Positions 10,700 to 41,681 of a stretch of 64,000 nt of DNA are shown here, piece by piece (position 1 is the stretch's first letter; every line of letters begins with the position of its first letter). The stretch is from NCBI RefSeq assembly GCF_023055435.1, contig NW_025964334.1, forward strand, positions 61,194,001 through 61,258,000, given 5' to 3'. A program made the translations under genes and the position numbers. A model generated the notes under the pieces. It made no database searches, was not told the DNA's origin, and saw nothing but the letters and a program-made list of their open reading frames with translations. Origin of the DNA: Haliotis rufescens (lineage: Eukaryota).

Positions 10700-10860
10700 C
10701 ATGAAGTTTTCGTTCCCGTTTCAGTTCCCGTTCCAGTTTTTGGTTGTTTTGGGCCAACGGCCCTTTTCAGGGCCACCCAACTCTCCCGAAAGAATGCTTT
10801 CATCATTGCTTTGCCAACCAACAACACACACACACACAAAAAGAAACCCAACAACAACTC

Positions 10861-11025
10861 ATCCCTCCTCCTCCTCCCCTCCAGCTCCTCCTCCTCCTCC
10901 CCCTCCTCCTTCTCCCCTCCAGCTCCTCCTCCTCCTCCCCCTCCCCCCCTCCCTCTCCTCCTCCCTCTCCTCCTCCCCCTCCCCCCCCCTCCCTCTCCTC
11001 CTCCTCCCCTCCACCTCCCTCCTCC
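10861..11025. repeat. (CCT)n/C-rich polypyrimidine tract in Polinton subterminal region
   Basis: Nearly pure C/T run; shorter in copy B (35875-35950). Confidence 0.9.
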
Positions 11026-13625: not shown

Positions 13626-14560
13626 ATGAATGATACTGGCATATTTATTCTTCTTGATAAGAAACTATTTAACTTTCAGGAAGATATATTATTTTCAACC
13701 TGGTGTAATAATCCTGTAAGAAAGTGCACTAATGGTATAATACTCCGTCAGAATGATGTGCTTGATGTCCTCTGTCAGTGTAACGATGTTTACATAATGT
13801 CTTATGGCGACCTTTATTCCCGTATCAGCACAGAAGCTGATTTTGTAGAAGATGACATTCTTGAACACTTCCACGGCCAGGATAATAACATGTAGGATTT
13901 TTTACTTGATCATTTGAACTCAGAAAGATTTTTCGAAGATTCGGGAATAAATAACTTTGGCAAATGTTTGTAAGATATGTGTCGTATTTTTGAATATTCA
14001 TAGTTTGGATGGAAGACATGGTACAGATACTGGTATTGGAGATTTCACATTTATTGGAAATCAGGGCGCCAATGTGGTTGACTATGTAATCAGATCAAAT
14101 GGCTTGTTTGATAAATGTGAAAGTTTTAAAACAGCGTCTCGCACCGTGTCGTCACATGTTCCAGTCACCACTGGATTACGTACGCAAAACTAACTTGATG
14201 ATGATTAATCATCAAATAGACAGCCTCGGAACAAGATTAAAATCGAAGATGGGTTCCAACATTTTCAAAAAATATTCTCTTATCCGAATGATAGGAACCC
14301 AGATGATTTTGGGATGTTTAATTTCGACGATAATCATTCCAAAAAGGTGACAACAGACAATGCCAATTCTCCAATTACCAAGAAAGACAGTTTTGATAGT
14401 ATTACACACTCAAAGAACAATAAGACATCAGGTGTGGATAAAGTTATTTAAGAATTATATCGGTTCGAACTCGAACGAATTTTTTTCTTTCCTGAGAATT
14501 GGTCACTTGGCTTTATTATTCCGCTTCACAATCAAGGAATTGTGAGTGATACAAATAACT
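13626..14560 (+). mobile_element. Decayed LINE (APE endonuclease region); mirror copy ~31850-32790 (-)
   Basis: GDFNS (copy B)/GDLYSR, GDFTFIGNQGANVVDYVI and SHVPV motifs. Confidence 0.75.
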
Positions 14561-14719
14561 TGGGAATTGAGGAATTGCACTTTTGATATCTTCCTCACAA
14601 TTCTTAGCTGAACACTCTGTAAATGTGTAAATGTTCATTTTCCATGCCATGAAACTTAGAGAGCATGCGCTTACTCAACGACTTGATGTTATTTAACAGT
14701 TACCATGGCTATTGATGTA

Positions 14720-15704
14720 AACTCTTCAAAAAAAGAGTGTACCTAATAAAGGCGCTCTATTTAATTTAATATCAAAGAAACAAATATGAAAATTTGGAGC
14801 TCGATAGTCACATATTGTCGTTGTACAAAGGCATTGAAAACTGTCAAATAAGGCAACAAGGTGGCGCTGAACTCAGTATCTCGTGTGACTGCACCGGGCA
14901 GCAATGGCGGCTCTGCATCTCTTTGGCACTGACTGAATAAGTGTACGAATTCTGTCCTATGGAATTCTGCGACATTCTGTTTGTAACGCGTTGGCCAGTT
15001 GAGGGAGTGTCTGCGGCGTGTTCTGACATTGACGTACACGTCGATCGAGTTCATCCCAGAGATCTGGAGATCTCGATGGCCTAGGCAAGACGTGGATGTT
15101 GGCATTATGAAAATAGTCTACCGTGACACGAGTTGTGTGCCGTGGAGCATTGTTCTGGTGAAACAGCTCCCTCGTGTGGTCAATGATTGGAAGAAAGTGA
15201 GGTTAAAGAACTTAAAATTTCAAATCTCGTGGTGTAGGATATGGCCCCCCACACCATGACATTACCGCCACCTAAATTGTCGAATTCACGTACACAATGT
15301 GGGGTAAAACGCTCATTTCGATGACGAAAATCGTGATTCATCGCTAAACCACACTCGTCTCAAGTTTCTCAAATTTTCGAACTTGAAAAATGTTGACAAT
15401 TGAATAACAAATTATTGGCTTATGCTTGCCTTTTAATAGCCACTACCACGAGTTACGAATGCCATAACTTGCACGTGCATTTTGCTTCACTGTTTTCCTT
15501 CATGACATTTTTGAACAAGTGCGAAACAATTCCGTTTAAGACATTGCAAATCGACAAAAGCTGCGTTTTGACGCACGGTTTGTTGAATATCAGGCCACCA
15601 ACATTTTCCAATAACATATATCCAATTTATATACCGTTTTATTTTGTGTAGTGAGGTTCAGTGAACTACATACTACCTGTGCGTTTCTTTTTTTTTGAAG
15701 AGTG
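14720..15704 (-). mobile_element. Tc1-like element, internally deleted copy
   Basis: TA-flanked (A/C)ACTCTTCAAAAAAAGA TIRs; mirror of 30272-31716. Confidence 0.85.
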
Positions 15705-15777
15705 TATATTCTATTGTATATATTTTTTGTATACTTTTTATGCATGTACTATAAGCCTACGGCCTTCTCAGTATTTA

Positions 15778-15913
15778 NNNNNNNNNNNNNNNNNNNNNNN
15801 NNNNNNNNNNNNNNNNNNNNNNNNNNNNNNNNNNNNNNNNNNNNNNNNNNNNNNNNNNNNNNNNNNNNNNNNNNNNNNNNNNNNNNNNNNNNNNNNNNNN
15901 NNNNNNNNNNNNN
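15778..15913. other. Assembly gap (136 N)
   Basis: Run of N at the position corresponding to the (TCAA)n microsatellite at 30218-30263. Confidence 1.
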
Positions 15914-15962
15914 GATTGATTGACCACAATTCTTAGCTGAATGCTCTTCCTTCCAGACAATT

Positions 15963-18900
15963 ATGGCCCTCGCTGTGATTATGATTCTAATGTCCATAGC
16001 AGTTTTCACACAAGGTAAAACAATGAAGCTTGTGCCTCTAAATAATATCTTTTACATTGCCCTGATATTATGAATGATAATGATTTTCCTGGATTTGTCA
16101 TGTCCCACCATATGGGCTTGAACAGAGGACTTCCATACACTCGGCGACAGAACAAATAGCATCTAATGCTGGGGATCAAGCTGATAATGTTTCAACTTAC
16201 CTGGTCCAAACTTGATTGCTTACAGGACCCGGTGATTAAGCTGGAATATTGTTAACTGTGACATAAAACAACGCAAAGGTAGAATCAAACTATGAATTGC
16301 TTGCAATTACAAATATATTTTATAAACATGTAAATTATTAGTGCATGAGGTTTCAAGCATAAGTGAATATGGATGATTGACTAATTGCTCCAGTCCTGAA
16401 CAAGTGTTCAATGCCAGTTACACGTCCCCTCGCCAAACTGCACATACCACTTTGAGCCTTAGATCTCCGTGATCATCTTTCCACACAATCAAGTAACGTC
16501 AAGAGCATTCAAATACTATATTCCTATATCTTCCTGGTCATATATACATATTAAATATTATTTATGTGACCTTCAAAAGGCATTTTATTCCGCAGCCAAG
16601 TTATGTTTACATTTTACAGCAGCAGGGTGTCTGAAGGGTCATCAGTGTTCAAACTGTAGCAGTACAGGGGACTGCAAATCAAAATGCTTCGGGGGATATT
16701 TTGGTGTGACTTGCAAGACACGTTGCTCGAAAGGTTGCCTAAATGGTGCGTGCGAGACATCAGAGACAGGCATTGGTAGATGCGCTGAAGGATGTGTACC
16801 TGGTTTTCAAGGCACAGATTGCACAAGACCATGTGCGCGTCAAGAGGCCACATGTACCAAGTGTCAGTCTGAGTGTGACCAGGGCTACTGTCAGCTGACC
16901 TCATCCTGTGTGTCTGGCTGTGTGGACGGATACTACGGCTCTGACTGTAAGAACTGCTCCAACAGGTGTAAAACCTGCAACAGGATCACTGGCACATGTG
17001 ACAAGTGTTACCCACTATATACCGGCCCTGATTGTCATTTTTCAGGATTGTGTGAAGCCGGGTGTACGGAGGGATGTGGACGTCAATTAAGTGGTAGTTT
17101 CTGTGTTGAGGTGTGCAGTCATAATTGCAAGGTTCATACCAACATGAATGATACGACGAGATGCCTGCCCCCTGGCGTAAATGCGTCTCTGTATTGTACA
17201 TCTGAGTGTCACAACCAGAGTGGCGAGTGTCTCCATGGCTGTGTTGAAGGCTGGTATGGTCCAAGGTGCCTCTCTCCTTGCAATGCAGACTGTCGTGGTG
17301 GACGATGTGATGCTGCTGGCGTCTGTGTGGACGAATGTATCGCGCGATATTCTGGAGAGTTTTGTAATGACACATGTGAAATGTGTCGTGATGGGGTCTG
17401 TGATCAGAAGACTGGCACGTGCATTAATGGATGTGACGTCAGTAAACGTGGATGTGGAACGTCCTGTACCAGCAACTGTTCCAGGGATTATTGTATGAAT
17501 GAGACATGCTCAGGTAAAAACAACCATTAACATTCCTTCAGTCAGTGTGCCAGATAATTAGTACTTCGTAATTCATTATTGAACTTATTGCGATTACCAC
17601 TTGGGAAATTTCTAAATTGAAAAGACGAAATTATGAATATAATCAATATTAACCTTGACATCGTCAAAGAAGAAAATAATGTTATACGTTTTCTATTTAA
17701 AGAGTTTACACTCACCATTTCGCGAACACCTGGTGTCATCACTATTTGAATGTGATTCATAAAGCCATGCCCACAATATAGTCGAAATTGTGTAGTGGAT
17801 TCTGCTTTTAGAAGATGTTTCTTTTATTTACGAGCTTTTTCTGTGACTTCCAGGCAAAATATTTCTCCTATATATCCTCTCTCCCCATCCCTCTATGTTT
17901 ACCCTCACCCTTAAACACTTTTGTGTACGTCCTGGATTGATCAGCATTGCAAGTTTATAATTTCATCTATATCTATCATGTATAAACTATGATAAAATAT
18001 GCAACTTTTCGAGTCAGGAAACTCAGATCAGTTTAATTCAATTATATCCAGATCACCAGAATAATCTAGGCTGTTTGTCTGTCTGCCTCTTCGTGTGTTT
18101 GGTAGTATGGTCAATACAAAATAGTTTTTGTCACATTCTCACCACTCAACTTTTATGTCATCTAATAAAGGTGAGCTTCAGTACCTGGAGAACCTGGTTC
18201 CATCAGTGCTTCCTGCTTAGTTTATCCTATTCTACTCACCAGATGAAAAGCCTACTGGGATCAGTGGAAGTCCGCATGGTCTCATCATAGGACTACCATT
18301 AGCGTGTGTACTCTTTGTCCTGGCGATCCTGGTGTCAAACTATGTCTGTTACCGCAAAGGTCAGACCAAGCAAAGGTGAATTTGAGGGATGTGCGTGCTG
18401 TTTGAATGTTTTATCCACTGAAAGAATGTTACCTGCAGATTGTAAAGCGCTCAATTTAAATTGAAAACGTTGTATCAAACCTGGTGTATGAATAGTTTGC
18501 CTTCACTTCCTTCAGTGCAGATCCATGAGTATGCCCATGAAACTTTGTATGCCCACTGGAAACGGCAGAAAATCGAGACTGATTATTCTCGGGCGTTGAC
18601 GTTTTGAATTTAGATACATTGTCAAGTGGTATTCCTTTATTGACCACGGTGAAGCTAATTTTAGCCACCAAATAACAGAAAATATCCGGAAACTAAAGCT
18701 ATCAATCGTCCACAACAGTTTAACAGATAGCATTTCACCTACGAATTCGAATTCGAATTATAATAAAACATAGATGGGAAAGGGTGTCATTGTGTACGTG
18801 TAGGATAATGGTTACACTTATTACTGCTACTGACGTATTCGTCCTTCTAAGTTACATGTATCTATGTAACATTTCGAACTTGTACTAACCCTTTCTTGGT

Positions 18901-19417
18901 GCCCCTTGCCCTGATATGATGTACGACCTCAATGGATTGTTATCATAGTAGATGTGTCATTACCATAGATATAGTGTAAGATTCTTGACAATGAGCAATA
19001 TGCTTCCCTTTCTTCTTCGTTTGTTATTACAGAGAGAATTTGGCGGTTTGGGAGTGTAGCCCCGTTGTAGAGTACCAGTCGTGGCACATATACTCTGACA
19101 TAGAAGAGGGGCATTTGGACGCTAAGGAGCAAAATGAGGGCCAAGAGAACCTAGAAGATGAACCTGGTCTCGCCATGCCTGTCATAGCAGATGTCTTCGC
19201 CGTTGCTGCGCCAATTGTACACAGAAATGATGACATGTTATCAGAGAGTTCAGCATCATCCACTTCTCAATCCTACACCCACCTGATTCCTAAGGTGGTC
19301 ACTGATGACCCGGGGACAGTTGACAGTTACATATCACCAGTGGAAGAGTTGACCCCACACCCACCTGACCCTGACGTAGTCGCTGATGACCCGGTGACAG
19401 CGGACAGTCACCAGTAG
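15963..19417 (+). CDS. Type I membrane receptor with EGF/laminin-EGF-like Cys repeats (MEGF10/SCARF/Draper-like), copy A. Predicted exons 15963-16014, 16620-17513, 18243-18375, 19033-19417; 487 aa
   Basis: Exon 1 encodes signal peptide MALAVIMILMSIAVFTQ|G before a gtaaaa donor. Exon 2 (894 nt) encodes CxxGxxGxxC repeats. Exon 3 encodes TM GLIIGLPLACVLFVLAILVSNYVCY followed by RK. Exon 4 encodes an acidic Tyr-containing tail. All junctions are GT-AG with compatible phases (1,1,2); the total of 1464 nt is in frame. Confidence 0.85.
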
Positions 19418-19929
19418 AAGATACCTATATGGTATTTTGAGACATTTTCTTATGGTCATTGTCAGCGAACAACTTCCAACAGTTTCTAAGGGAACAATAC
19501 TTCTTGATGAAAAGCTAACATATTATAGCCAGAACATACATATACCAGTATCCCTGAAACAGGTAACCACAAGCACTAGTAAATAACAGCTCGGCAGATT
19601 TTACTGACTTTATTCGGACTTACGTCTACTCGTTGTGGCAGTTCTAAAACTAAAAGTGTATGTAACCTCACCAAAACATAATGCTTTTGCTTCCATCGTT
19701 TTAAATCTTGAACTTGTTTATCTATTTTTCTTGCTTGTAATTGTCAACCCCATACCCCCACCCCACAACATACATGACCTGTGACATAAGCTAATGAATC
19801 CTAGTGTACATGGACAGATATGAGCTCCATTTCGCCTCCAATGCAATATGTGTGCATGTAGATAATTAAGCTAAAATGCTTCAAATGAAATAAATAACGG
19901 GCCAGATGGTTGAATGTGCAACTCAGTTA

Positions 19930-20462
19930 TTGTTTGTTTGATGTGTTTGTCTTTGTTTAACGCCGCACTCAGCAATGTTCAAGCTCCATAACTGCGGTCT
20001 GCAAATAATCATGCTCTGGACCAGACAATCCAGTGACTGACATTATGATTTGGTTTGTTTGTTTGTTGTTTAACGCCGCACTCAGCAATATTTCAGCTAT
20101 ATGACGGCAGTCTGAAAATAATCGAGTCTGAACCAAACAATCCAGTGATTAATATCATGAGCATCGATCCACGCAATTGGGATACGATGACATGCATCAA
20201 CCAAGTCAGCGAGCCTGACCACCCGAGCCCGTTAGTAGCCTCTTATGACCAACATAGTCGGCTTTTACAGCAAGTATGGGTTGCTGAAGACCTATTGTAT
20301 TCCGGATCTTCAAGGTTCGACTAACATCATGAGCGTCAGTTCACACCATTGATGTACGATGACAGGTGTCAACTAAGTCAGCAAGCCTGACCACAATCAT
20401 AGTGTCCTTTTGCGGAGAGCATGGGTTGCTGAAGACCTATTCTAACTCGGATCTTCACGGGG
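19930..20462 (-). mobile_element. Cluster of nested/partial SINE copies (CCCGTGAAGATCC...AAACAAACAAAC family)
   Basis: Same family as 35378-35615 (+) and 58208-58503 (-). Confidence 0.8.
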
Positions 20463-21489
20463 GAACTCCAATAATGACAAAGCCTATGCTACATGTATCT
20501 ACCTTTGTATTGTAACGGAAAAAAGTAACCGTCCTTCAAACAAATTCAGTCAAACTACATCTTTTCTGAAATTAAATAATTAATCTTTAAATATATATTA
20601 AAAAGAGATATATCCTGGTGATTCACAATTTCAAAGTCTACGCCTCAGTGTGTATGCTGCAAGCAAGATAACTTGCCCATCTCTGGTCGTCCACGTGTAA
20701 CATCACGTCAACAAGACATCAACATTCGGTTGGTGCATTTACTCGGCAGATTCCTTGGTTAAGAATAACATTTGAATTCATCTTTTACAGGTAACCTAGC
20801 TCTACATTAAAAACACAATATGTTTATCTCCAAAATCAAATACAAGTGATCGTATATCTATAAGAAGTGAAAACATTTTTGTTTAGTACAATAGTGAGTG
20901 ACTGAGTGAGGTTTAAGCCGCTTTTAGCAATATTCCAGCAACATCACGGCGGGGGACACCAGAAAGGGGCTTCACACATTTAGTACAATAGAGAGGACGT
21001 TGTTTCAGAACAAGGATACATACTTCTTCATTACCAACTTCATGGGATATCTAAATATGCCCAAAGCCGTAACTAAACAGTACAATTCTAATATGAAATG
21101 CCCAATGTAAGTATTTCCCCTCACAGGGATGGTATAGCATTCTCTCACACTGATGCGGGTGTCTATATGTGGGCATTGATAAACCACGTAATATATACTC
21201 ACACGCAAAGGAAACGCAAGAGGTTTTAAGCAAATAGGTAACAAACACGGAACCATAAATTGATACGAGTTTTAGCAAGTAGTGAAGCCTGACGGTGGTA
21301 TCAATATTTTTGGTTGCATTTTGGAAGCCCCGAGTAAAAAAGCAACATAAAAAACGAATCGCCAAAACGCACCATTTCAATGAATATGTGGGTATCATGC
21401 ACCCATTTCTCGCGAAATCGAAAATGCACGAACTGTCACGAACTGTAGTGGGTATAAAACTGTGGCCGATTCTTGGACCTACCACTCCT

Positions 21490-22154
21490 TGGTCAACAAT
21501 GCACGCCTAAGTCAAATTCAGAGAAACCAGGCTATCGGACGTCATTTCAACGTCAACATAACCACAATTTACCGTTTCCTGCATCGATGCAATGCTACAC
21601 AGACCACAGATGACCTTCTTCGTAGCGGTCGTCCTAGGGTCACCACACCTCGACAAGATCGGCAGATTACCCGTCAACACCAGCGACATGGGCATTGTTT
21701 GGACTAAATGCGAGACTTGGACCCATGTGCTTTCTGAATGTTGGTCAAGGTCGGGGACACGGCGTCACTGCTAACACTGCGGTATTTCGACCAAGTGATC
21801 AGACCTGACGTTGTTCCATTTTTTGCTCAACATCAACAACACATTTTCCAGCAGGACAACGCTCGTCCCCATGTTGCCAGAGCTACCGTGGCCTTTCTGC
21901 AACAACATAATATCCGTGTTCTACCGTGGCCAGCTCTCAGCCCTGATCTGAACCCCATCGAACACTTGTGGGATGAGTTTCAAAGGCGTCTGCACAATGT
22001 GCGCCCAGTCCCTACAACTGGCGATGAACAACGCGCAGCTGCTCTGGATGTGTACAGGAAGATCCCTAGGGCCGTCACAAATCGTCTGATCCACTCAATG
22101 TACAGGAGATGTGTGGCAGGGATCAATGCTAATGGTGGTGACACCAGGTACTGA
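21490..22154 (+). mobile_element. Tc1-like transposase pseudogene (element ends not resolved)
   Basis: RSGRPRVTT, FQQDNARPHVAR, WPALSPDLNPIEHLW. Confidence 0.9.
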
Positions 22155-22349
22155 CCGACATTTTGGGTATTGACCCGAAACCGTGTAAGCCCTTAACATT
22201 GGAAAAAACCCCAATTATGTCATCTGCCTTTTAATCCATTAAACTGTCTTAAGTCAATTTTTTGTCAATCTTTTCCTATTAGTCTTTCTTGTCTTTACTG
22301 TTGAAAATAAATAACATGTATACTGCATATATATGATATAATATTTTGT

Positions 22350-24360
22350 ACAGCGTGGATATCGGTCAAACTCACCATATAAAACAGCATTTGGAAAACA
22401 ATAATTTATATGTAAAACAGATTTACAAACTTTTCTATGTACAATTTCTATATAATCCTTTTGCTTGTATTCCCAAACCTACTATACAACAATATCGGAA
22501 CTATTTTGGCGTCAAATATTTGATAGGCATTATTAGCACATATATTGTATTTAAACAACGCATTGTAATAGTATTCAGTGCTTTACTTGCCTGTTCTACA
22601 AGGGTATTAGAGTTATAATCTGAGTCCACCTTTCGTAACAAAAGTGTCTGCCACCAGTTTTGTAATAAAACAACATTAGTTTGTTTGTGTATTAATTTCC
22701 ATTTCCCATATTCCTACAAGAGATCTTTATAATTTTATAATAGTATATGCTACCAGTATTAGATCATCTGCAAATGATAAACACAATATGGTTTACCTTT
22801 CCTCTGATATGAACACATCATCGTCTACCCTAGGGCTAATAAATTCCACTAATTCCTTAAATGAAAACTGAGCAAAGTAAAGGACTAAAAGTATATTCTT
22901 GTCGTACACCAAGCAAGTACGTAAAAACTCAAATAATGTGTTTTCCTTACCCGCAGAAACCGCAGACGTAACATGACTGGTTAACTCTAAAGAATTTACC
23001 ATGAATGAGAAATGTTTGCTAAAAAATCCTAATTTTATTACTATTTACCATTTCAAATGATTTCTTAAAGTTTACGAAAGAGCAGTAAAATGTACCTTTT
23101 TTACGTGCTATGTGTTTCTGTTTCCAATGTCTCTAATATGAATATTTTGTCTTCAGTGGAATGATTTTATTTTTAAACCCACTTTGGTATTCAGAAATAT
23201 TATCTATATTTTTAAGGAAAATATCCAGTCTCTTATTTAGTATTGCCATAGCGACTGATGTATGACAGCAAGGCTAAATACCCTGTAGCCATGACATGTG
23301 CATGTTTCCATAACTTAACTGTCATTATGTATTAGGCGCTAATCTCCGTTGTTAATCCTCACCAACATTTCATTGTATATTGACTGTCAGCCAACCTGGG
23401 CCACCATATCACTTCCCGTTAATTAATGTTATTTATAGTACGTGTATGAGCTGTGTCGGTTCATCAGCCTAGAAGTCCCATGTCCAGAGCAACTTCATTG
23501 TTTGTCCACTGTTGTTCATTACTATATATGTGTTACCATAACCCATTTAGTCAGCTTGGTATTCCGAGTGCTGGTGTAGGGACGACCTCGAGCAGGATGT
23601 GCCGCTCGTAGGAAGCGTTCTGAGGTTTAGCTGGAGCTCCGCTCACCTCATGTATGCCTGAGTTGGAGGGTCCACCCATTGTTGTGTTTGTGTTGTCAGA
23701 GCATGTATTCCGCTCATTGTGTATTTGTCGTTTATTTTTTACATGTTGTGCATAAAACGTTCTGGGACAGTGATGTAGATTTTGTCCTTGATTTCCCCAA
23801 GAGCTAATTCCCTGTCAACATGTGCGTTGACAGTATAAAAGCAAATATCTTACTCATGTTGTTAAGTAATGAGATTCCTTTGTAGTTATTAGGGTCTTCT
23901 GTGTTGCCTTTCTTATTTATGGGTATTATACTAGATGTAGCCCAAGCATAAGGAAGGTTAATTGTTAGCATATTCAATTTTGGTTAAACAACACAGTGAG
24001 ATGTTGAATTAGTATATCTGTGGCATTTTTAGAGAACTCTGAGAGAATACCGTCATCTCCTGGAGATTTATCAACTTTAAGATTATCAGCTGTATCCGAT
24101 ACTTCACAAAAGGTATCTCGGATGACAAGATCATCCGGTTGCAGGCACTTTTCACAATCAGTAACTATACGTAATGATAACAATTTTTCCACCTTAAGAT
24201 TAAACTCTGTTTCCATCTCCTCGTTCATCTGTTCATTAGATTATTATAGTGTTACTGAAGACGGACTCTTTTGAATATTTATTAACTTATTACTATGAGC
24301 TCTTGCAGTTGTGTGTATCAGTCTGCTTTAGTTAAATTGTGATCAAACCACTATAGCCTG
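22350..24360 (-). mobile_element. Decayed LINE reverse transcriptase (CR1/L2-like)
   Basis: KSPGDDGI, IIPINKKGNTEDPNNYKGISL and LSFADDLIL (22751-22780) motifs. Confidence 0.8.
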
Positions 24361-27039
24361 ATTCAAACTGTTCAACGAATATCCGTTGCTAAAGATATTC
24401 CATATCACAGTGATTCTCGGTTGTTTCTGCTGGAGCATAAACAAAGAACAGTATCAGACGGAATTATTTTTACCGAACCCACCTTGGTATTGTCTTAAGT
24501 ATCGAGTCTCTTATTTAGCATATAACCTAATATCTTACTAGAAGTGCTAAGACAAATATTATCTGGCCACTTTGGATGAATCCGTGACAATAACTTACAC
24601 ACGCCACGTTCAATTTATAGTGCGAAGCCTCCACAAAAGCGAATTTTTGAGAATCGACTAGAAAAATGAATATTTGCTAAATATATGTGCAAAACCCCTA
24701 TCTGAGCAAAAAGATATAATCTGAACTGAAATGGAACTGATAAAGTCAGGAATACTTATAAAGTCCGTTCACATTCCATCTAAGGATGGATCACTATTTG
24801 ATAGAGATTCATAAACACACCACGTTTATTATATTCACGAAGTCCGAATCGTACAATGGACATTTCTGATGATTATGAAAGATGTCTTTCGTTTTTATTT
24901 GGTTGTAGATTTGTTTTTGACCGTCCGTGCAAAATCCGGACCGAACAATTAAGATGTGAGAGAAAAGTGGCTTCCTGTAACTCCCGTCATGGTAACTACT
25001 TAATGCTGTACACTGTGTCATTGTATCTACGTATACAGCAGATACAGCTATGTCGTGTTAAAGAATATTTGTTTCACGACAGTTAAAAGGCGTTGCAATT
25101 ATTAGTCACGTTTCAAATCTGTATTCGATTGAGTATTCGTCTTTTACAAGTAGCCTTAATAAACCAATCATGATTGCCTCGCTCATTTGTGGAGTGTGAT
25201 TGAAAACTAATGTCAGGTATGTACGTTGCATCAAAAACAAGGAGGTACAGGTATGGTCGTCTGTAGTAGAATCATTAGTCAATAATAATCTTGGGCGGTT
25301 TTTGCCCGGTCTGATGTTAAGGCAACCCAACGAGTATACTCTTTTTGGTATACAGTTGAATACCAAAATGATTCTATGGCAGAGTCATAACATCTGTAGT
25401 TGTTACCTGTTCTGTGATAACAGAAATGTCCCCGACTTTCATTGTAGTCATATGTCTATGTAAACATTAGTGCCAAGGCACTGTAGCTTATCAATCAGTT
25501 GATTAAAAGTGAGCGGTTTCAGTTTGATCGCTCTTATTTTAAAAAAAAAGATATCAGGAAATTATCAACCTAAAACTAATTTACATTTCACGATTAAAAT
25601 TTGAACTCCACTGTAAAGCTATATGTCTTACCAAAGGGACTCAGTGACATTTAGCTTGTATTTTTAGTAGCACCCTCCTGAAGATCATGCTTCAAATTTG
25701 CCACAATTGAAGAGTACCCTTTTTCAGTTTAAATGAAAAAAAACTATGCTTATTTCAATGTCATGAATAAGTCAAAGTAACATTAATCATAAATATTCAT
25801 AATAAAAGTTTCATGTGGTTCTTGAAATTTCTAACAGTATTTTTGAATGTTTTTCTCTGAAATCTAAACATTCGTTAAAATCTCTGAAACAAACAACTTC
25901 ACATCTAATTTTAAGTTATTATTACATACTTCAGATGTTTCAGAGAAGAAGAAGATATGGGCTCACTTGGACTCACTGGTGAGCTAAAACAGAAACCGAA
26001 AACTGTCCTTGTTGGTACCAATCAGTGTTTATTTCCATATACACCAAAGACGGTGTTGCCAAATCACATTTGCGCAAATAATGCATAATTAATATGTCAG
26101 GAAAACGTGAAATGCTTCAATAATGATATATACAGACGAGCAGACGCTTGTACAGATGACTGTAAGTTTATAACAATGTACAGAAATGAAGTTAATTATC
26201 GGAGTGATATTCGAAGAAGGGAACTAAACATACATGTATTGAATGTATGAACCTAGAGAAAAAATTGGTACTGACTTTTTTAAATTGAATTACAACAAAA
26301 CATAGCTCCCTGTGATATAGATGAAAATGACTGCACTCCCTTATATGCAATTTGTTACATGGTGACTTCAAAATAAAAAGAAACTTAAGTTAACTCAGAA
26401 ATCTATACACAGAAGCATTCAGTGTGAAACCAACAAACAAAGAAATGTTAAACAATGAAAAACTGTATTATAAAATGAAGAAGGCTTACAAATCAATAAC
26501 AAATACTGCAAAATAATTACAATGACAGTACACGATAAAGTAGCAGTACAATATTCAAAGGCAGTACAATTTCAATGGCAGAATAAAATACTATAGCAGG
26601 AGTAATAGCAATAGCGAGTCAGCTATAATAATATTCACCAAGCAGCAACAGTGGTCAAGCTTACAATATAGGCCCAGGCTGGACATAGTCTAAATTCCTT
26701 CTGGAAAGTTCCATGCCATGTCTTCAACTGTGCCAGAAGATTCCTGACAACTATTTATTGTTATTAAACAGAAACACAGTAACACAATTATAACATTGTC
26801 TACAATAAATGCACTACCACATAATGTATTGTGATATTTGATAGTTACGTTGTAATATGTGAAAGTGATTCATAGGCACAAGCTAATGATATAGTCTGAA
26901 TCGTACAATCAATTCTGCGTTTAGCAGAGTATCTTTTGAGTATCAAAGGTGACGCCCACGGCCATAAAGTGACATAAAACAGCCAAGTCAAGAACATTTG
27001 AAATGTGCCTTCTACAACACCAGGCACACACGAGTTCAC

Positions 27040-27312
27040 TGTCTTCATTTACCTAGAGGAACAATATAACTGGAACACACAGAGGAATACTTTGACTTGA
27101 ACAACTAGAGGAACAGTATGAGTGGAACACCTAGAGTTGGAATATGACTGGAAAGCTTAGGGAAAAGGAATACTATGACTGGAACACCTAGAGGAACACT
27201 TTGACTGGAACACCTTTAGGAAACCTATGACTTGAACCCACTGGAGGAACACAATGACTGGAACACTTAGATGAAGACTATGACAGGAACACCTAGAGGA
27301 ACACAATGACTG
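27040..27312. repeat. Degenerate ~26-bp minisatellite overlapping the stop codon and 3' UTR of receptor B
   Basis: Repeated TGACTGGAACACCTAGAGGAACAC units. Confidence 0.85.
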
Positions 27313-30179
27313 GGCCCGTAGCCTCCTCGTCAACATCACAGTAGTCAGAACTGCGCGACCTACTGGGTGGCCCAGGCTGTTCAGCTGATGGATGTTGTGG
27401 ACGACTGATATCTTCCCGGTCTGTTATTTCATTCAATAAAATAGCTTCGCCATGGTCTGTAGTGTTTCTGTAAAATAACAATACTTTATCATGTTTCTCA
27501 TTTCAAGAAACTAAAAAGACAAACTAATCATACACCAAGTTTGAGGCAACGATTTCAATTTAAATTGAGCGCTTTACAATCTGCAGGTTACATTCTTTCA
27601 GTGGATAAAACATTCAAACAGCACGCACATCCCTCAAATTCACCTTTGCTTGGTCTGACCTTTGCGGTAACAGACATAGTTTGACACCAGGATCGCCAGG
27701 ACAAAGAGTACACACGCTAATGGTAGTCCTATGATGAGACCATGCGGACTTCCACTGTACCCAGTAGGCTTTTCATCTGGTGAGTAGAATAGGATAAACT
27801 AAGCAGGAAGCACTGATGGAACCAGGTACAGAAGCTCACCTTTATTAGATGACATAAAAGTTGAGTGGTGAGAATGTGACAAAAACTATTTTGTATTGAC
27901 CATACTACCAAACACACGAAGAGGCAGACAGACAAACAGTCTAGATTATTCTGGTGATCTGGGTATAATTGAATTAAACTGATCTGAGTTTCCTGACTCG
28001 AAAAGTTGCATATTTTATCATAGTTTATACATGATAGATATAGATGAAATTATAAACTTGCAATGCTGATCAATCCAGGACGTACACAAAAGTGTTTAAG
28101 GGTGAGGGTAAACATAGAGGGATGGGGAGAGAGGATATAAAGGTGAAATAATTTGCCTGGAAGTCACAGAAAAAGCTTGTAAATATAAGGAACATCTTCT
28201 TAAAGCAGAATCTACTACACAATTTCGACGATATTATTGGCATGGCTTTATGAATCACATTCAAATAGGATGACACAAGGGGTTCACGAAATGGTGATTG
28301 TAAACTCTTTAAATAGAAAACGGATAACATTATTTTCGTCTTTCATAATCTCGTCTTTTCAGGTTAGAAATTTCCCAAGTGGTAATTGCAATAAGTTCAA
28401 TAATGAATTACGAATTACTAATTATCTGGCACATTGACTGAAGGAATGCTAATGGCTGTTTTTACCTGAGCATGTGTCATTCATACAATAATCCCTGGAA
28501 CAGTTGCTGGTACAGGACGTTCCACATCCACGTTTACTGACGTCACATCCATTAATGCACGTGCCGGTCTTCTGATCACAATCCCCATCACGACACATTT
28601 CACATGTGTCATTACAAAACTCTCCAGAATATCGCGCGATACATTCGTCCACACAGACGCCAGCAGCATCACATCGTCCACCACGACAGCCTGCATTGCA
28701 AGGAGAGAGGCACCTTGGACCATACCAGCCTTCGACACAGCCATGGAGACACTCGCCACTCTGGTTGTGACACTCAGATGTACAATACAGAGACGCATTT
28801 CCGCCAGGGGGCAGGCATCTCGTCGTATCATTCATGTTGGTATGAACCTTGCAATTATGACTGCACACATCAACACAGAAACTACCACTTAATTGACGTC
28901 CACATCCCTCCGTACACCCGGCTTCACACAATCCTGAATAATGACAATCAGGGCTGGTATATAGTGGGTAACACTTGTCACATGTGCCAGTGATCCTGTT
29001 GCAGGTTTTACACCTGCTGGAGCAGTTCTTACAGTCAGAGCCGTAGTATCCGTCCACACAGCCAGACACACAGGATGAGTTCAGCTGACAGTAGCCCTGG
29101 TCACACTCAGACAGACACTTGGTACATGTGGCCTCTTGACCCGCACATGGTCTTGTGCAATCTGTGCCTTGAAAACCAGGTACACATCCTTCAGTGCATC
29201 TCCCAATGCCTGTCTCTGATGTCTCGCACGTACCTTTTAGGCAACCTTCCGTGCAATGTGCCTTGCAAGTCACGCCAAAATATCCCCCGAAGCATTTTGA
29301 ATTGCAGTCCCCTGTACTGCTACAGATTGAACACTGCTGACCCTTCAGACACCCTGCTGCTGTAAAATGTAAACATAACTTGGGTGATAGAAGCTGTGGA
29401 ATAAAATGCCTTTTGAAGGTCACATAAATAATATTTAATATGTATATATGACCAGGAAGATATAGGAATATAGTATTTGAATGCTCTTGACGTTACTTGA
29501 TTGTGTGGAAAGATGATCACGGAGATCTAAGGCTCAAGGTGTGTGTGTGTGTGTGCATTTGGGCGAGGGGACGTGTAACTGGCATTGAACACTTGTTTAG
29601 GACGGGAGCAATTAGTCAATCATCCATATTCACTTATGCTTGAAACCTCATGCACTAATAATTTACATGTTTATAAAATATATTTGTAATTGCAAGCAAT
29701 TCATAATTTGATTCTACCTTTGCGTTGTTTTATGTCACAGTTAACAATATTCCAGCCTAATCACCGGGTCCTGTAAACAACCAAGTTTGGACCAGGTAAG
29801 ATAAAACATTATCGGCTTGATCCCCAGCATTGGATGCTATTTGTTCTGTCGCCGAGTGGATGGAAGTCCTCTGTTTAAGTCCATATGGTGGGACATGACA
29901 AATCCAGGAAAATCATTACCATTCATAATATCAGCGCAATGAGTGAGTGAGTATTGTTTTACGCCCCTTTTTGCAATATTCCAGCAAAATCAGGGCGGGG
30001 GACACCAGAAACAGGCTTCACACATTGTACCAATGTCGGGAATCGAACCCGGGTCTTCAGCGTGACGAGCGAACGCTCAGGGCAATGTAAAAGATATTAT
30101 TTAGAGGCACAAGCTTAATTGTTTTACCTTGTGTGAAAACTGCCATGGACATAAGAACCATAATCACAGCGAGGGCCAT
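27293..30179 (-). CDS. Type I membrane receptor with EGF-like Cys repeats, copy B. Predicted exons 30179-30128, 29359-28466, 27776-27644, 27467-27293; 417 aa; short tail with ITIM-consensus SDYCDV
   Basis: The first three exons have the same lengths as in copy A (52/894/133 nt) and the same splice sites. A distinct last exon follows the acceptor ttattttacag|A in phase 2 and reads RNTTDHGEAILLNEITDREDISRPQHPSAEQPGPPSRSRSSDYCDVDEEATGPVIVFL*. The total of 1254 nt is in frame. Confidence 0.85.
29942..30076 (-). mobile_element. 5'-truncated tRNA-derived SINE in the intron after the signal-peptide exon of receptor B
   Basis: 11-bp TSD TCAG(C/G)GCAATG; absent at the equivalent site in copy A (~16055). 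Confidence 0.9.
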
Positions 30180-30217
30180 AGTTGTCTGGAAGGAAGAGCA
30201 TTCAGCTAAGAATTTCG

Positions 30218-30264
<47 letters not shown>

Positions 30265-30271
30265 GAATATA

Positions 30272-31716
30272 CACTCTTCAAAAAAAGAAACACACAGGTA
30301 GTATTTAGTTCACTGAACCTGACTACACAAAAAATGCGGTATATAAATTGAATATATGTTATTGGATAATGTTGGTGGCCTGATTTTCAACAAACCGTGC
30401 GTCAAAACAAAGCCATTGTCGATTTGCAATGTCTTAAACAGAATTGTTTTCGCACTTGTTAAAAAATGTCATGAAGGAAAACAGTAAAGCAAATGCATGT
30501 GCAAGTTATGGCATTCGTAACTCGTGGTAGTGGCTATTAAAAGGCAAGCATAAGCCAATAATTTTTTATTCAATTTGTCAACATTTTTCAAGTTCGAAAG
30601 TGCCGTGACTGATCGCTGCCAATCGGTACATCGCCATAGGACGTATCCAAAGAGGGGAATCTTAGGCTTCTGTTACACGCCACTTCAACGTCCACCACAG
30701 CACCATTTCGCCTTTTGGACCGATACACACAGTTCAATTCGACTGCAGACTGTCCAAGAACCGGACAACCAAGAGTTACCACCCCTGCACAGGATCGCTA
30801 CATTCGACTGTTCCACCTACATCATGTCAATGCCACAGGTACCGAGACTGCATGGAGGCATCCCTGGTTTGAGGAGGATATCGGACAAGACTGTCAGGAA
30901 CAATCTTCACGAGGCTGGAATCCGATCCAGAAGACCAGTTATCGTCGCTGTTTTGCAACAGATCCATCGACAGCGACGCTTGCGTTGGTGCCCCATACCT
31001 TACATATTTGGAATATGAGAAACTTGAGACGAGTGTGGTTTAGCGATGAATCACGATTTTCGTCATCGAAATGAGCGTTTTGCTCCACATTGTGTAAGTT
31101 AATTCGACAATTTAGGTGGCAGTAATGTCATGGTGTGGTGGGCCATATCCTACACCACGAGATTTGTTTGGTTGTAGTTCAGGGAAATTTGACAGCAAAT
31201 TGCTACATGAATCCAATTCTTCAACCTCACCTTCTTCTAATCATTGACCGCCAGAGGGAGCTGTTTCAACAGAACAACGCTCCACCTCACACAACTCGTG
31301 TCACGGTAGACTACCTTCATAATGCCAACATCCACGTATTTCCTTGGCCATCAAGATCTCAAGATCTCTGGGATGAACTCGATCGACTTGTACATCAATG
31401 TCAGAACACGCCGCAGACACTCCCTCAACTGGCCAACGCGTTACAAACAGAATGGCGCAGTATTCCATAGGACAGAATTCGTCCACTATCCACACAGTGC
31501 CAAGGAGATGCAGAGCCGCCATTGCTGCCCGGTGCAGTCACACGAGATACTGAGTTCAGCGCCACCTTGTTGCCTTATGTGACAACGACAATATGTGCCT
31601 ATCTAGCTCCACAATTTCATATTTGTATCTATGATATTGAATTTAATATATCGACTTTATTAGGTACAAAAACAATTCCTAAAAATATACCTGTGCGTTT
31701 CTTTTTTTGACGAGTT
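30272..31716 (+). mobile_element. Tc1-like element with transposase pseudogene
   Basis: TA|CACTCTTCAAAAAAAGAAAC...GTTTCTTTTTTTGACGAGTT|TA; motifs GQPRVTT, WFSDESRF, FQQNNAPPH, WPSRS. Confidence 0.9.
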
Positions 31717-34700
31717 TACATCAATAGCCATGGTAACTGTTAAATAACATCAAGTCGTTGAGTAAGTGCATGCTCTCTAAGATCATGGCATGGAAAATGA
31801 ACATTTACACATTTACAGGGTGTTCAGCTAAGAATTGTGAGGAAGATATCGTAAGTGCAATTCCTCAATTCCCAAGTTATTTGTATCAGTCACAATTCCT
31901 TGTTTGTGAAGCGGAATAATAAAGCCAAGTGACCAATTCTCAGGAAAGAAAAAAATTGTTCGAGTTAATTCTTAAATAACTTTATCCACACCTGATGTCT
32001 TATTGTTCTTTGAATTTGCAATACTGTCAAAACTTCTTCCTTTGTAATTGGAGAATTGGCAATGTCTGTTGTCAACTCTTTAGAATGATTATCGTCGAAA
32101 TTAACATCCCAAAATCATCTGGGTTCCTATCATTCGGATAAGAGAATATTTTTTGAAAATGTTGGAACCCATCTTCGATTTTAATCTTGTTCCGAGGCTG
32201 TCTATTTGATGATTAATCATCATCAAGTTAGTTTTGCGTACGTAATCCAGTGGTGACTGGAACATGTGACGACACGGTGCGAGACGGTGTTTTAAAACTT
32301 TCACATTTATCAAACAAGCCATTTGAACTGATTACATAGTCAACAATATTGGCGTCCTGATTTCCAATAAATGTGAAATCTCCACACGTCTGTACCACGT
32401 TTTCCATTTATAATATGAATGTTCAAAAATATGACACATATCTAACAAACATTTGCCAAAGTTATTTATTCACGAATCTTCAAAAAATCAAATGAGTTCA
32501 AATGATCAAGTAAAAAATCCAACATGTTTTTTATCATGGCCGTCGAAGTTTTCAAGAATGTCATCTTCTACAAAATCAGCATCTGTGCAGATAAGGGAAT
32601 TAAAGTCGCCACAAAACATTATGTAAACATCGTTACACTGACAGAGGACATCAAGCACATCATTCTGCAGGAGTATTATGCCATTAGTGCACTTTCTTAC
32701 GGGATCATTACACCAGATTGAAAAAAATATATCTTCCTGAAAGTCAAATAGTTTCTTATCAAGAAGAATAAATATGCCAGTATAATTCATTTTTGTCTAT
32801 TCACAGACTTTATAGGTTGTTTTCTGCCATTGAGAAAAATAGGTGAGACTGTCTCGTCTCGTGGTGGTATGGTCATATTTAATCCATTGGATTTTGTCCA
32901 CCAGAGAATCAGCTTTCAAGTCACTTAGAAATATGTGTTTCCAAAGCTCATTTAAACTTACCTTTTTCGCTTACAGTTGTCAGCTAAATGTGAAGTTACT
33001 CATTTGTGCGTCATTTTCATCTTCCTCCTGTGGAGTACACGTGACACGTGACATCTTCCTGTCGTAGAGGAAGTAAGAAGTGCACAGTAGTTTCGGTATT
33101 GACATCAGTGTGCTTGTTTACACGATACGACATTCTAGGAAGTAAACATGTTATTGTTGAGAATGAATAGGTAGATCTTCAACAATCTGGTTGATCAGGC
33201 CCGAGGAGAAACCGGGACAAAGTAAAACAAAATGAGGACCGTCATGCATCGCGAATTCGTACTAGTAGCCATGCAAAGCTGGCCGGGACTGAACACTGAT
33301 CAGTATGTCAAAGTTACACTACAAACTAGGGTCAGCGATCATACCCTATTCACACGTTACCAGTTTTCTGGTGGAAGTATGATGAGATAGGGCGACCTTA
33401 TTTTTAAGGAATGGAGAGTTACGAAGATATTCCCCTACTGAAAACTCATCCTTACTTTTACGCTTTGACAAAATATTCTGTTGTGGAAAACATTTGAAAA
33501 ATAAACCAGAACTCTTTGGCGTGAGTCACCTTTGCCTTCTCTGCCGCTGTTGCACATGCGCAACGCTCCTTCGCGAGGTGACATTTACAATGCATGGTAC
33601 ACGGCTCTTCATAATTCCTTTGGATCCTAAACTAGTATTTATCAATCGCTTGCACATTGTTAATACATGCTGACGGGAATAACAGACAATATATATATAA
33701 ATATTAACACATATATTACCTGATTTGGTTTTTCTTGTCAAAGGTCTAATTGCTATAAATATGAACATCGTTGTAGGTAACCTGCTCTAGCACAAATCAT
33801 ATACATATTATTTTGAGATTTGAAGCATTATGCAAAATTATGAACATATTTAATAGTTAATTTCACACTATACATTCATATGACGCCGTGGCTGAGGTTG
33901 GCAATTTCGCGTTCTCAAATCAAACGCTGGGGGTTCGAACCCTGCTGGCGACACATGTTTTGGAAAAAAATGAAATTATTTACTTGTCAATAAATGTAAA
34001 AAATAGTTCCGTCTATTCCAAGTGGACATTGTTTCAAATGTTGGTTCAAGATAATGTATTGTTGACAAACAACTCTCCATTCCTGAAAAATAATGGAGCG
34101 TTCAAACAATAGAATGAAGTCACACATGTGTTTTAAATAAACATACCTGCAACCTCATTAACTGGTACGTCCTTCCTACGCCTACTGGTACTCCCTAATG
34201 GAAGGCTGTTTTTTTTTCAAAGACATAACTATGTTTAAGTTTCTAACATATACTGAACACTACTTATCTTAAAATGACCCATGGTATGTCTCTCGTAGTG
34301 TAGCTAACAAGCATCAATAAAAAGAATATGATACACCTAATATAGTTTTTTGCACGTGGTGTTCGTTGTGAGCATCATGCTAAACATCAATACATTAACA
34401 TCTGCTACATGTCCCTTCCCCGAATGTTGATGGAGAATAAAATGAAATACAAGACACCACACAGGCACATCACACATGCAAATACACAAGCAAGCGGATG
34501 TTTTCTTTTTATTGTTACACGGCAGTGTATTTCATTGTTAAACAATGATTGTAATTGTATTACATTGTTTCTGTTGAGATTCGGTGGAAGCTCATTGTCT
34601 TGTATTTGGACAATGATTAGTTGTCAGGAATGTAGTAGTATTAAGTGTAGCAGTGGTTAGGAAGTTACTATATTTAGATGCTAGTGTGATATGTAAACTT

Positions 34701-35377
34701 AGGGAACAGTGTAGACTATTCTGTGATGTTCAAGTGACACTGGTCTGGTCTGGCACCCTGTAGAAATACGTAAGCGAGTAAATCTGAATATAAGGGGGCA
34801 AGATTGTGCCTCTCTCGTCTCTTTCACGCATTTCTCTCACACAATTCATTACATCAAGATCAGTGTGCAGATCACATGTCACCACGGATTCCCTGCCTGG
34901 AACTTTCTCGGAAGCTTGACCACTTATATGGCCACTGGGTGAATATACTGTTATCACTGACTCTTGTTATCACCACTGTGTTTTTTATTTGATACTGACC
35001 ACTGTCATCATATTATATATTGCCACTGTATATTGTCCTAAAATTCTGTTGTGTACTTGTGTACTGCCATTTTAATTGCAGTTCTGTTATTTGTATTGAT
35101 TTGTAAACCTAGTTATGTTGTAGTATATTGTTGATTGTATACCATTTGTTGGTTGTTTGTTGGCTTCACATTGAATTCGCTCACGTAAAGATTTCTGGGT
35201 TAACATATTGTTTCAATTTGGGAATCGACACGATACAGAAATTAGGGATTTTGCATGAAGTTTTGTCTTCAAAGAGATTAGAACTTGAGAAATTGTGACT
35301 GGAAGCTTATAGAGAAATTCGGCTGAAACGACTTGTGTTACAGAATGATCTCTCTCACCGTACCGTTAAAGGTGATG

Positions 35378-35615
35378 GACCCGTAAAGATCCGGGGTAGA
35401 ATAGTTCTTCAGCAACCCATGCTTGTCCTAAAAGGCGACTAACAGGATCAGGTGGTCAGGCTTGCTGACTCGTTGATACATGTCATCTTATCCCAATTGC
35501 GTGGATCGATGCTCATGACAACTAAGTTGTCTGGTCCAGACTCGAATATTAACAGACCGCCGTCATATCCCTGGAATATTGTTGATTGCGGTGTTAAACA
35601 ACACACAAACAAAAA
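35378..35615 (+). mobile_element. SINE
   Basis: Same family as 58208-58503; absent from the left arm. Confidence 0.8.
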
Positions 35616-38810: not shown

Positions 38811-38951
38811 TGGATGTTCCTCCCTTTCTCTGCCTTGATGGACGTCTGGTCAGGTTGAAAGTCTGATGAGGACTGACCTTTAAACCATTTTTCTTTTCCA
38901 TTTACGCTGTTTCTGATGGGTGGTGGTGGTGGTTGGGATGACTTTACGTCT

Positions 38952-39233: not shown

Positions 39234-39239
39234 CGGCGT

Positions 39240-41672: not shown

Positions 41673-41681
41673 TTTCTCTCA

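What the first reader, a model, noticed from the sequence alone, without database searches (positions are those of the whole stretch)
18500..27520. The two tail exons sit on a potentially invertible 9-kb cassette between 15-kb inverted repeats
Seen: the unique spacer holds tail exon A (+) at its left edge and tail exon B (-) at its right edge, both with phase-2 acceptors, flanked by long inverted arms. Established: recombination between inverted repeats inverts the intervening DNA. Inference: a crossover anywhere in the shared receptor exons or introns would flip the spacer. That would join promoter and ectodomain A to tail B and vice versa, in frame. This would be a shufflon-like switch of signalling output, either germline-polymorphic or somatic. 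No recombinase or specific site is visible, so it would rely on homologous recombination.
Basis: inference. Interest (0 to 1): 0.72.

Follow-up and report, generated by a model that had tools for sequence, protein, structure and literature searches.

The report
Abalone paired receptors, two tails
Two abalone cell-surface receptor genes face each other across a 9-kb gap with nearly the same outer part but two different, much older inner tails; this look-alike-outside, different-inside pairing recurs through their gene family and likely comes from occasional DNA copying between neighbours over generations, not from a flip switch, although rare inherited flips are not excluded.

Summary
The layout is real. 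Imperfect inverted arms (15.2 and 15.0 kb spans, 10.2 kb alignable, 88-97% identical) flank a 9,012-bp spacer holding two different last exons, both phase 2. Gene A (487 aa) and gene B (417 aa) differ at 24 of their first 360 residues.

The switch reading is only partly supported. The two tails are ancient, family-wide types. In a 30-row ectodomain tree, five A-tail/B-tail pairs are each other's nearest neighbours: three as direct repeats, two inverted. Inversion is therefore not needed. The spacer is not wholly unique: gene A's last intron holds a decayed copy of tail B, so A is an old B-front/A-tail chimera. Arm divergence falls from 7.5% to 2.9% towards the spacer, which points to repeated germline exchange.

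RNA contigs of two samples from one study link ectodomain A to tail A, either spliced or with the last intron retained (a predicted tailless form). No recombinase was found.

Verdict: a mollusc case of paired receptors with homogenised ectodomains, most likely by gene conversion. A standing germline flip that swaps tails is untested (about 15%); a somatic shufflon is unlikely (about 2%).

The parts
3272..18503 (+). Left arm of the inverted segmental duplication (13 collinear blocks)
27516..42541 (-). Right arm of the inverted segmental duplication
18504..27515 (.). Spacer, 9,012 bp: two tail exons, 3' UTRs, dispersed repeats; no Rfam match
15963..16014 (+). Gene A exon 1 (hydrophobic, signal-peptide-like; phase 1)
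   Evidence: exon 1 letters joined to exon 2 in an X13 contig (table 7)
16620..17513 (+). Gene A exon 2, Cys-rich EGF-like ectodomain (894 nt)
   Evidence: intron 2 spliced in X11 and X13 contigs. No Pfam match at E 0.01; the EGF label rests on the Cys pattern and on source names
18243..18375 (+). Gene A exon 3, membrane span; its 3' end is of the B/D type
18563..18615 (.). Fragment of a high-copy dispersed repeat inside a ~97-bp stretch that A has and B lacks, at the arm's inner edge
   Evidence: 39 other matches among 40 scored
18601..18862 (+). Decayed relic of a B-type tail exon and flanks in gene A intron 3
18897..19032 (+). 3' part of gene A intron 3, homologous to gene C's intron; the old fusion point lies at about 18862-18897 (inferred)
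   Evidence: 18897-19421 vs gene C, 78%
19033..19417 (+). Gene A exon 4: A-type tail, 127 aa, acidic, four tyrosines
   Evidence: exon 3-exon 4 joint in a 58-nt X13 contig, 27 of 28 tail letters matching
21384..22154 (+). Broken Tc1/mariner-type transposase remnant in the spacer
   Evidence: Pfam DDE_3, E 6e-11
27293..27467 (-). Gene B exon 4: B-type tail, 57 aa, one tyrosine in an ITIM-consensus match, conserved hydrophobic C-terminus
27051..27313 (.). 26-bp tandem repeat whose first unit overlaps the end of tail B; expanded to about 4.6 kb behind gene D
27644..27776 (-). Gene B exon 3 (2 nt differences from A)
28466..29359 (-). Gene B exon 2 (26 nt differences from A; 21 non-synonymous, 5 synonymous)
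30128..30179 (-). Gene B exon 1
29941..30077 (.). Dispersed-repeat insertion in gene B intron 1, absent from A
3272..11156 (+). Broken mobile-element relic in the outer left arm, mirrored at about 35780-42541; Polinton/Maverick-like is my recalled reading
   Evidence: weak rve integrase hit below cut-off; homologues named 'F54H12.2-like'

Best explanation
Genes A and B are a pair of abalone EGF-type surface receptors with nearly identical outer parts and two ancient, different cytoplasmic tails, likely kept alike by repeated germline gene conversion or re-duplication between neighbours rather than by a flipping cassette. SHOWN: the gene structures; family-wide A- and B-type tails; repeated A/B pairs in both orientations; a tail-B relic in gene A; divergence falling towards the spacer; A transcribed with tail A. 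INFERRED history: (1) two tail types arose early in the family; (2) before the split from H. cracherodii a B-type front was fused to an A-type last exon, making the gene A lineage; (3) after the split about 15 kb of front and upstream DNA was copied between A and B, direction unproven; (4) later, shorter tracts refreshed the gene body. INFERRED function: both bind the same or overlapping ligands and signal differently, B through one ITIM-like tyrosine and a conserved hydrophobic C-terminus, A through several tyrosines. A predicted tailless form from intron-3 retention would add a third output.
For: Ectodomain nt identity A/B 97.1%, C/D 98.0%, across pairs about 80%; tails A/C 83%, B/D 79%. C and D are direct repeats 17-28 kb beyond the window. 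Ectodomain tree, 30 rows: the tail label needs 7 changes (at least 6 forced by strong branches) and tail-B monophyly is rejected, p-AU 2e-65. Mixed cherries: A/B 100/98, C/D 100/99, L030/L031 100/97, L014/L015 97/94, L013/L016 93/90; three direct, two inverted. H. cracherodii P0004 (tail A) is sister to A+B; A/B 93.3% vs 89.7% and 90.3% to P0004. H. cracherodii has its own B-tail protein P0017, 95-96% identical in ectodomain to its A-tail neighbours and 66% to gene B. P0004 and P0005 have the B-type exon-3 end with an A tail. Divergence 7.5% outer, 5.8% middle, 3.9% introns, 2.9% exons; outer vs introns p 1e-6, or 2e-4 without CpG; 9 identical runs of 100 or more vs 1.4 expected. L030/L031 share only 1,013 bp at 95.6%. 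An X11 contig runs from an A-type ectodomain (3 differences to A, 25 to B) into tail A.
Against: The gradient towards the spacer is also what past inversion toggling would leave, so it does not separate conversion from flips. The least diverged window (17909-18217, 1.0%) lies where a crossover would swap whole ectodomains against tails. A single recent duplication with uneven mutation rates is not fully excluded. Opposite signalling is not shown: ITIM consensus in only 2 of 7 B-type tails, ITAM in 1 of 13 A-type tails and not in gene A, no charged residue in the membrane span. On the tree the label is still weakly clustered (27 of 500 shuffles as low). The tree holds 23 loci of this genome out of roughly 100, chosen because a tail could be recognised. 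RNA evidence is assembled contigs from 2 samples of 1 study.
Confidence: 0.7

Rival explanations
1. Standing germline inversion polymorphism: ectopic crossover between the arms has flipped the spacer in some wild haplotypes, sometimes inside the gene bodies, giving ectoA-tailB and ectoB-tailA alleles. It can coexist with the best explanation.
For: 10.2 kb of alignable arms at 88-97% around a 9-kb spacer. In humans 72% of recurrent inversions have flanking repeats of 10 kb or more at 79% or more, and length, not identity, drives recurrence (passages). Perfect tracts of 176, 168 and 109 bp lie between ectodomain and tail. Divergence falls towards the spacer.
Against: Arms are broken by large indels and have no perfect tract of 200 bp; mismatches depress recombination (passages). 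About 13 of 15 kb of arm would flip without changing a protein. Both typed RNA samples show ectoA-tailA; the two B-type letters inferred in the A transcripts are isolated, not a block.
Confidence: 0.15
2. One inverted duplication of about 15 kb captured a pre-existing B tail once; no continuing exchange, and gene B may be drifting or decaying.
For: A/B ectodomain dN/dS 1.14, not distinguishable from neutrality (Fisher p 1.0), vs 0.39-0.48 across pairs. The shared transposon relics show the arms descend from one block.
Against: Divergence differs significantly along the arm even in non-coding, non-CpG sites. Gene B's frame and splice sites are intact and its C-terminus is conserved. The same pairing recurs four more times.
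Confidence: 0.1
3. Programmed or frequent somatic shufflon-like switch of signalling output.
For: In-frame geometry only.
Against: No recombinase among 13 frames scanned by Pfam (3 receptor exons, 10 other ORFs) or 12 by PHROGs; only broken rve and DDE fragments. Arms are 3-12% diverged. Direct-repeat pairs show the same pattern. No ectoA-tailB joint was listed in X11 or X13.
Confidence: 0.02
4. Assembly artefact: two alleles of one gene joined in inverted orientation.
For: A 136-N run lies in the left arm (15778-15913); no laid contig spans arms and spacer.
Against: The tails belong to two family-wide types. DNA run X1 holds two alleles inside tail-B-only sequence (27413) plus A-type contigs, and bridges the B junction; X4, from another study, holds both A- and B-type contigs. 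The N run lies outside the inner arms and spacer.
Confidence: 0.03

Closest known systems
Paired opposing leukocyte receptors with 'merohomogenization' (KLRC/NKG2, KLRI, KLRB, PIR; PMC3210942, passages read)
   Same: Linked paralogues whose ligand-binding parts are homogenised after speciation, patchily, while the signalling parts stay old and distinct.
   Different: A mollusc EGF-type family; the membrane span is homogenised too and has no charged residue; opposite signalling is not shown; here the tract extends about 13 kb upstream.
SIGLEC11/SIGLEC16 (PMC5701461, passages); CEACAM1-related pairs (PMC2832619, passages)
   Same: An inverted pair about 9 kb apart with recurrent conversion of the N-terminal exons. 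For CEACAM, inversions between inverted subclusters are proposed to have formed paired receptors.
   Different: The Siglec pair is head-to-head, so its tails point outwards; here the pair is tail-to-tail, so only the tails lie in the spacer. Both abalone partners keep tyrosine-bearing tails.
Drosophila Draper-I/Draper-II (review PMC9008705, passages)
   Same: EGF-type receptor offered with different tyrosine tails, one ITIM-bearing.
   Different: Draper makes them as isoforms of one gene and has an ITAM; here separate genes, and no ITAM or NPxY in gene A or B.
Human recurrent (toggling) inversions between inverted segmental duplications (bioRxiv 10.1101/2021.12.20.472354 and PMC7263195, passages)
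   Same: Long inverted arms, short spacer, no recombinase.
   Different: Both orientations are shown in human populations; none is shown here.
R64-type bacterial shufflon (recalled, no call)
   Same: An inversion would change a protein's C-terminus in frame.
   Different: No short recombination sites, no dedicated recombinase, no mixed orientation seen.
MEGF-rich resistance region SudRes1 of Biomphalaria sudanica (PMC12297450, passages)
   Same: Clustered, paralogous gastropod MEGF receptors with a suspected immune role.
   Different: Those described carry phosphatase and galactose-binding domains; no tail pairing appeared in the passages read.

Membership tests
Paired receptors with merohomogenization | Ectodomains of the partners are closer to each other than to the sister-species counterpart | tested here: met
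   93.3% vs 89.7% and 90.3%; P0004 sister to A+B at 100/98. Orthology of P0004 is inferred from its tail.
Paired receptors with merohomogenization | Signalling parts predate the homogenisation | tested here: met
   Tails A/C 83% and B/D 79% while ectodomains pair A/B and C/D; B-type tails in H. cracherodii and H. asinina proteins.
Paired receptors with merohomogenization | Patchy or graded homogenisation | tested here: met
   Gradient 7.5 to 2.9% and excess long identical runs; exon-only tract in L030/L031. Conversion is not separated from past flips.
Paired receptors with merohomogenization | Opposite signalling (ITIM vs ITAM or adaptor-binding charged membrane residue) | tested here: inconclusive
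   ITIM consensus in 2 of 7 B-type tails (genes B and D); ITAM in 1 of 13 A-type tails, not gene A; membrane spans identical and uncharged.
Paired receptors with merohomogenization | Shared ligand and co-expression | not testable with these tools
   No binding data; only gene A transcripts could be typed.
Shufflon (features recalled) | Inversion swaps the C-terminus in frame | tested here: met
   Both acceptors phase 2; exon 3 donor identical. Geometry only.
Shufflon (features recalled) | Dedicated site-specific recombinase nearby | tested here: not met
   None among 13 (Pfam) and 12 (PHROGs) frames scanned; not every ORF of the window was scanned.
Shufflon (features recalled) | Short defined recombination sites at the cassette edges | tested here: not met
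   The edges are the ragged ends of kb-long homology, with decayed homology continuing inside; no dedicated search for short sites was run.
Shufflon (features recalled) | Both orientations within one individual | not testable with these tools
   Only short-read contigs could be laid.
NAHR-mediated recurrent inversion | Flanking inverted repeats of 10 kb or more at 79% or more | tested here: met
   10,186 aligned columns at 88-97%, but in 13 blocks; criterion.
NAHR-mediated recurrent inversion | Both orientations segregate in the population | not testable with these tools
   No second assembly (no relatives held) and no long reads.
Draper/CED-1/MEGF10 | Signal peptide, Cys-rich EGF-like repeats, one membrane span, tyrosine tail | tested here: inconclusive
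   The layout fits by eye and by source names, but there is no Pfam or PDB match.
Draper/CED-1/MEGF10 | NPxY and ITAM in the tail (NPxY recalled; ITAM) | tested here: not met
   NPxY in 0 of 20 tails; no ITAM in genes A-D.

The most novel reading that the evidence does not exclude
Abalones run a family-wide, invertebrate paired-receptor system in which two ancient signalling tails are repeatedly re-attached to new EGF ectodomains, and at this tail-to-tail pair the 9-kb spacer flips as a heritable polymorphism through the near-identical intron 2-intron 3 patch, giving reciprocal ectodomain-tail alleles that reverse the response to a ligand without changing gene number.
Probability: 0.15. Interest if true: 0.75.

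Novelty: new variant of a known kind. Interest (0 to 1): 0.45.

Why it matters
Paired receptors kept alike by gene conversion are a vertebrate immune pattern, read as an answer to pathogens that exploit inhibitory receptors. My literature searches (open-access and bioRxiv only) listed no molluscan case. A roughly 100-locus abalone family that repeatedly pairs one ectodomain with two conserved tails would be an independent invention of that design, and gives concrete candidates for disease-resistance genetics in a farmed animal. The tail-to-tail pair is a clean place to measure conversion against inversion. Because the partners differ at only 24 of 360 front residues, a flip would matter mainly through promoter use or fine ligand specificity.

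Tried and rejected
No RNA holder on record was listed; 'RNA' for X11, X13, X17 and X18 is the tool's guess, confirmed for X11 and X13 by spliced joints. No contig of X11 or X13 covered tail B (bins 27100-27475 at 0), nor of X17 or X18; this is not evidence that B is silent. The depth that one search shows at 27137-27515 for X11 and X13 is probably the intron-3 relic cross-mapping (inference), so it was not counted as B expression. One search's tables were swamped by dispersed repeats and cut.

Phasing ectodomain letters to tails in DNA contigs failed: no piece spans the interval. A 419-nt X4 contig identical to B at near-double depth could mean conversion or assembly bubble loss; left undecided.

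A tail-B search among longer proteins found nothing (weak). No H. cracherodii B-tail protein with a P0004-like ectodomain appeared among 12 hits of 71 candidates, but gene B itself did not appear either, so no weight was given. Pfam, PDB and Rfam gave nothing for the receptor or spacer. The remote search returned unnamed relatives only. The Atlas gave no result. Positive selection on the A/B ectodomain was not supported (p 1.0). The paper search for F54H12 with Maverick found 0, so that label is recalled.

Rows left out of the tree: L017-L019 (tail not assignable to an ectodomain, or ectodomain broken or outside the stretch), L021, L022, L047-L052 and the second C46 inverted pair (broken or no tail found), P0006 and P0013 (appear to be gene E and L031), P0009, P0011, P0015 (no typed tail); P0017-P0020 were fetched after the tree. 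No supplements were read.
Full report
OBSERVATION. Self-comparison shows inverted arms at 3272-18503 and 27516-42541 around a 9,012-bp spacer. Aligned block by block they give 10,186 columns in 13 blocks at 88-97% identity. The largest block is 2.4 kb and the longest perfect tract 182 bp; 8 tracts reach 100 bp and none 200 bp. Part of the arm is found only in these two places among the scored candidates, so it is a true segmental duplication. The outer arms hold a broken mobile-element relic (Polinton/Maverick-like is recalled).

GENES. Gene A (+; 15963-16014, 16620-17513, 18243-18375, 19033-19417) encodes 487 aa and equals stored protein P0016, which its source labels 'protein draper-like [Haliotis rufescens]'. 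Gene B (-; 30179-30128, 29359-28466, 27776-27644, 27467-27293) encodes 417 aa. Both have a signal-like start, one Cys-rich exon, a membrane exon and a phase-2 last exon. They differ at 24 of the first 360 residues; the membrane span is identical.

THE TAILS ARE OLD. Beyond the window's right end lie two more paralogues on the + strand: C with an A-type tail and D with a B-type tail. Ectodomain identity is 97.1% for A/B, 98.0% for C/D and about 80% across pairs, whereas tails pair A/C (83%) and B/D (79%). The family has roughly 100 loci in this genome. In an ectodomain tree of 30 rows (23 loci here, 7 database proteins; omitted rows are listed under Tried and rejected) the tail label needs 7 changes, at least 6 forced by strong branches, and one clade for B-tailed genes is rejected (p-AU 2e-65). 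The label is still weakly clustered: 27 of 500 shuffles were as low. Five cherries join an A-tail and a B-tail gene: A/B, C/D, L030/L031, L014/L015 and L013/L016 (the last at 93/90). Three are direct repeats and two are convergent. The other convergent pair shares only its 1,013-bp exon. H. cracherodii has its own B-tail protein whose ectodomain is 95-96% like its A-tail neighbours and 66% like gene B. The pairing therefore recurs, in two species, with or without inverted orientation or long arms.

GENE A IS AN OLD CHIMERA. About 18601-18862, in its last intron, is a decayed copy of the B tail exon. From 18897 the intron matches gene C. Its exon 3 ends like B, D and P0017, not like C, E or P0007/18/19/20. 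H. cracherodii P0004 and P0005 have the same B-type end with an A tail, so the fusion is inferred to predate the species split. P0004 is sister to A+B (100/98), so the A/B homogenisation is inferred to be later.

EXCHANGE BETWEEN THE ARMS. Divergence is 7.5% in the outer relic (271 of 3598), 5.8% in the middle (232 of 4027), 3.9% in introns (56 of 1433) and 2.9% in exons (31 of 1079). Outer vs introns gives p 1e-6, or 2e-4 without CpG sites; introns vs exons p 0.19. Identical runs of 100 or more number 9 against 1.4 expected. This indicates more than one round of exchange, most recent near the spacer. It fits conversion, and it also fits past toggling; the most alike window (17909-18217, 1.0%) is where a crossover would swap whole ectodomains. 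The A/B ectodomain has dN/dS 1.14, not different from neutral.

READS. DNA runs X1 and X4 (two studies) hold both A- and B-type contigs. X1 bridges the B junction and shows two alleles in tail-B-only sequence, so A and B are paralogues, not alleles (contig depth is not copy number). In X11 one 2,310-nt contig splices intron 2, keeps intron 3 and runs into tail A, with 3 differences from A and 25 from B in exon 2. X13 shows exon 1-2, 2-3 and 3-tail A joints and also an intron-3-retaining contig; X17 and X18 have pieces inside or entering intron 3. Retention would stop translation one codon after exon 3, giving a predicted tailless receptor; nascent RNA is not excluded. The difference counts imply two isolated B-type letters in these A transcripts (2 of 17 sites in X13), a hint of short tracts or shared polymorphism, not of a crossover block. 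These are assembled contigs from two samples of one study, not molecules.

CAN IT FLIP? Human data make a germline flip plausible: most recurrent inversions have repeats of 10 kb or more at 79% or more, length matters more than identity, and rates are 3.4e-6 to 2.7e-4 per generation (passages, passages). Against that, the arms are fragmented, mismatches depress recombination (passages), and only about 2.5 of 15 kb would alter a protein. No recombinase was found. I put a tail-swapping germline polymorphism at about 15% and a somatic switch at about 2%.

FUNCTION. All 7 B-type tails scanned end in a conserved GP-x-IVFL motif; genes B and D match the ITIM consensus and the other five do not. A-type tails are longer with several tyrosines; one of 13 matches an ITAM, not gene A; none of 20 has NPxY (ITIM and ITAM definitions as). 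A PDZ-binding role for the B C-terminus is my recalled guess. Different signalling is likely; opposite signalling is unproven. An immune role is inferred from gastropod MEGF clusters and from the vertebrate parallel.

KNOWN KIND. It works like vertebrate paired receptors under 'merohomogenization', closest in layout to SIGLEC11/16, an inverted pair 9 kb apart, and to CEACAM pairs. It meets three of five membership features; one is inconclusive and one untestable. It fails the shufflon test and is not a Draper orthologue by tail motifs. All nine papers were read as search passages only. Searches listed no molluscan paired-receptor case. An earlier unchecked note on another abalone receptor family reports a similar pattern; it is a lead, not support.

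VERDICT. Observation partly confirmed; interpretation partly supported; new variant of a known kind; interest 0.45.

Noticed in passing
window 18376-19032: Gene A intron 3 is retained in contigs of X11 and X13, with pieces in X17 and X18, while intron 2 is spliced in the same X11 contig; retention would give a tailless receptor.
   Followed up: partly
L020:4108-5197 and L025:6512-7939; window 27051-27313: In several B-type genes the end of the tail exon has been amplified as a tandem repeat in the 3' UTR; in L020 and L025 the units still read as copies of the C-terminal peptide separated by stops.
   Followed up: no
L011/L012 (G000:C346, about 2897580-2898050): Paralogue E has a frameshift early in its A-type tail and ends after one tyrosine motif; H. 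cracherodii P0020 has the full tail.
   Followed up: partly
L040 (G000:C46:2465061-2473545): A further convergent inverted pair of this family sharing only the 1-kb ectodomain exon (92%); both copies look broken and no tail was found.
   Followed up: partly
L015, L016, L017 tails; genes C and E: A-type tails grow by internal duplication of their motif blocks, changing the number of tyrosine motifs.
   Followed up: no
window 5838-9155: A nested imperfect inverted repeat (77-95%) inside the left arm only, absent from the right arm; possibly a foldback element.
   Followed up: no
window 43225-57536: Four large minisatellite arrays (34, 30, 36/110 and 37 bp units) just outside the right arm; their long ORFs come from the repeats.
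   Followed up: no
L008-L010 (G000:C556, about 61154001-61182200): A 587-bp satellite array of at least 28 kb, about 99.7% identical between units, begins about 12 kb left of the window.
   Followed up: no
window 2625-11156 and 35780-42643: Broken mobile-element relic with integrase-like and F54H12.2-like frames, present in both arms, so it predates the 15-kb copy.
   Followed up: partly
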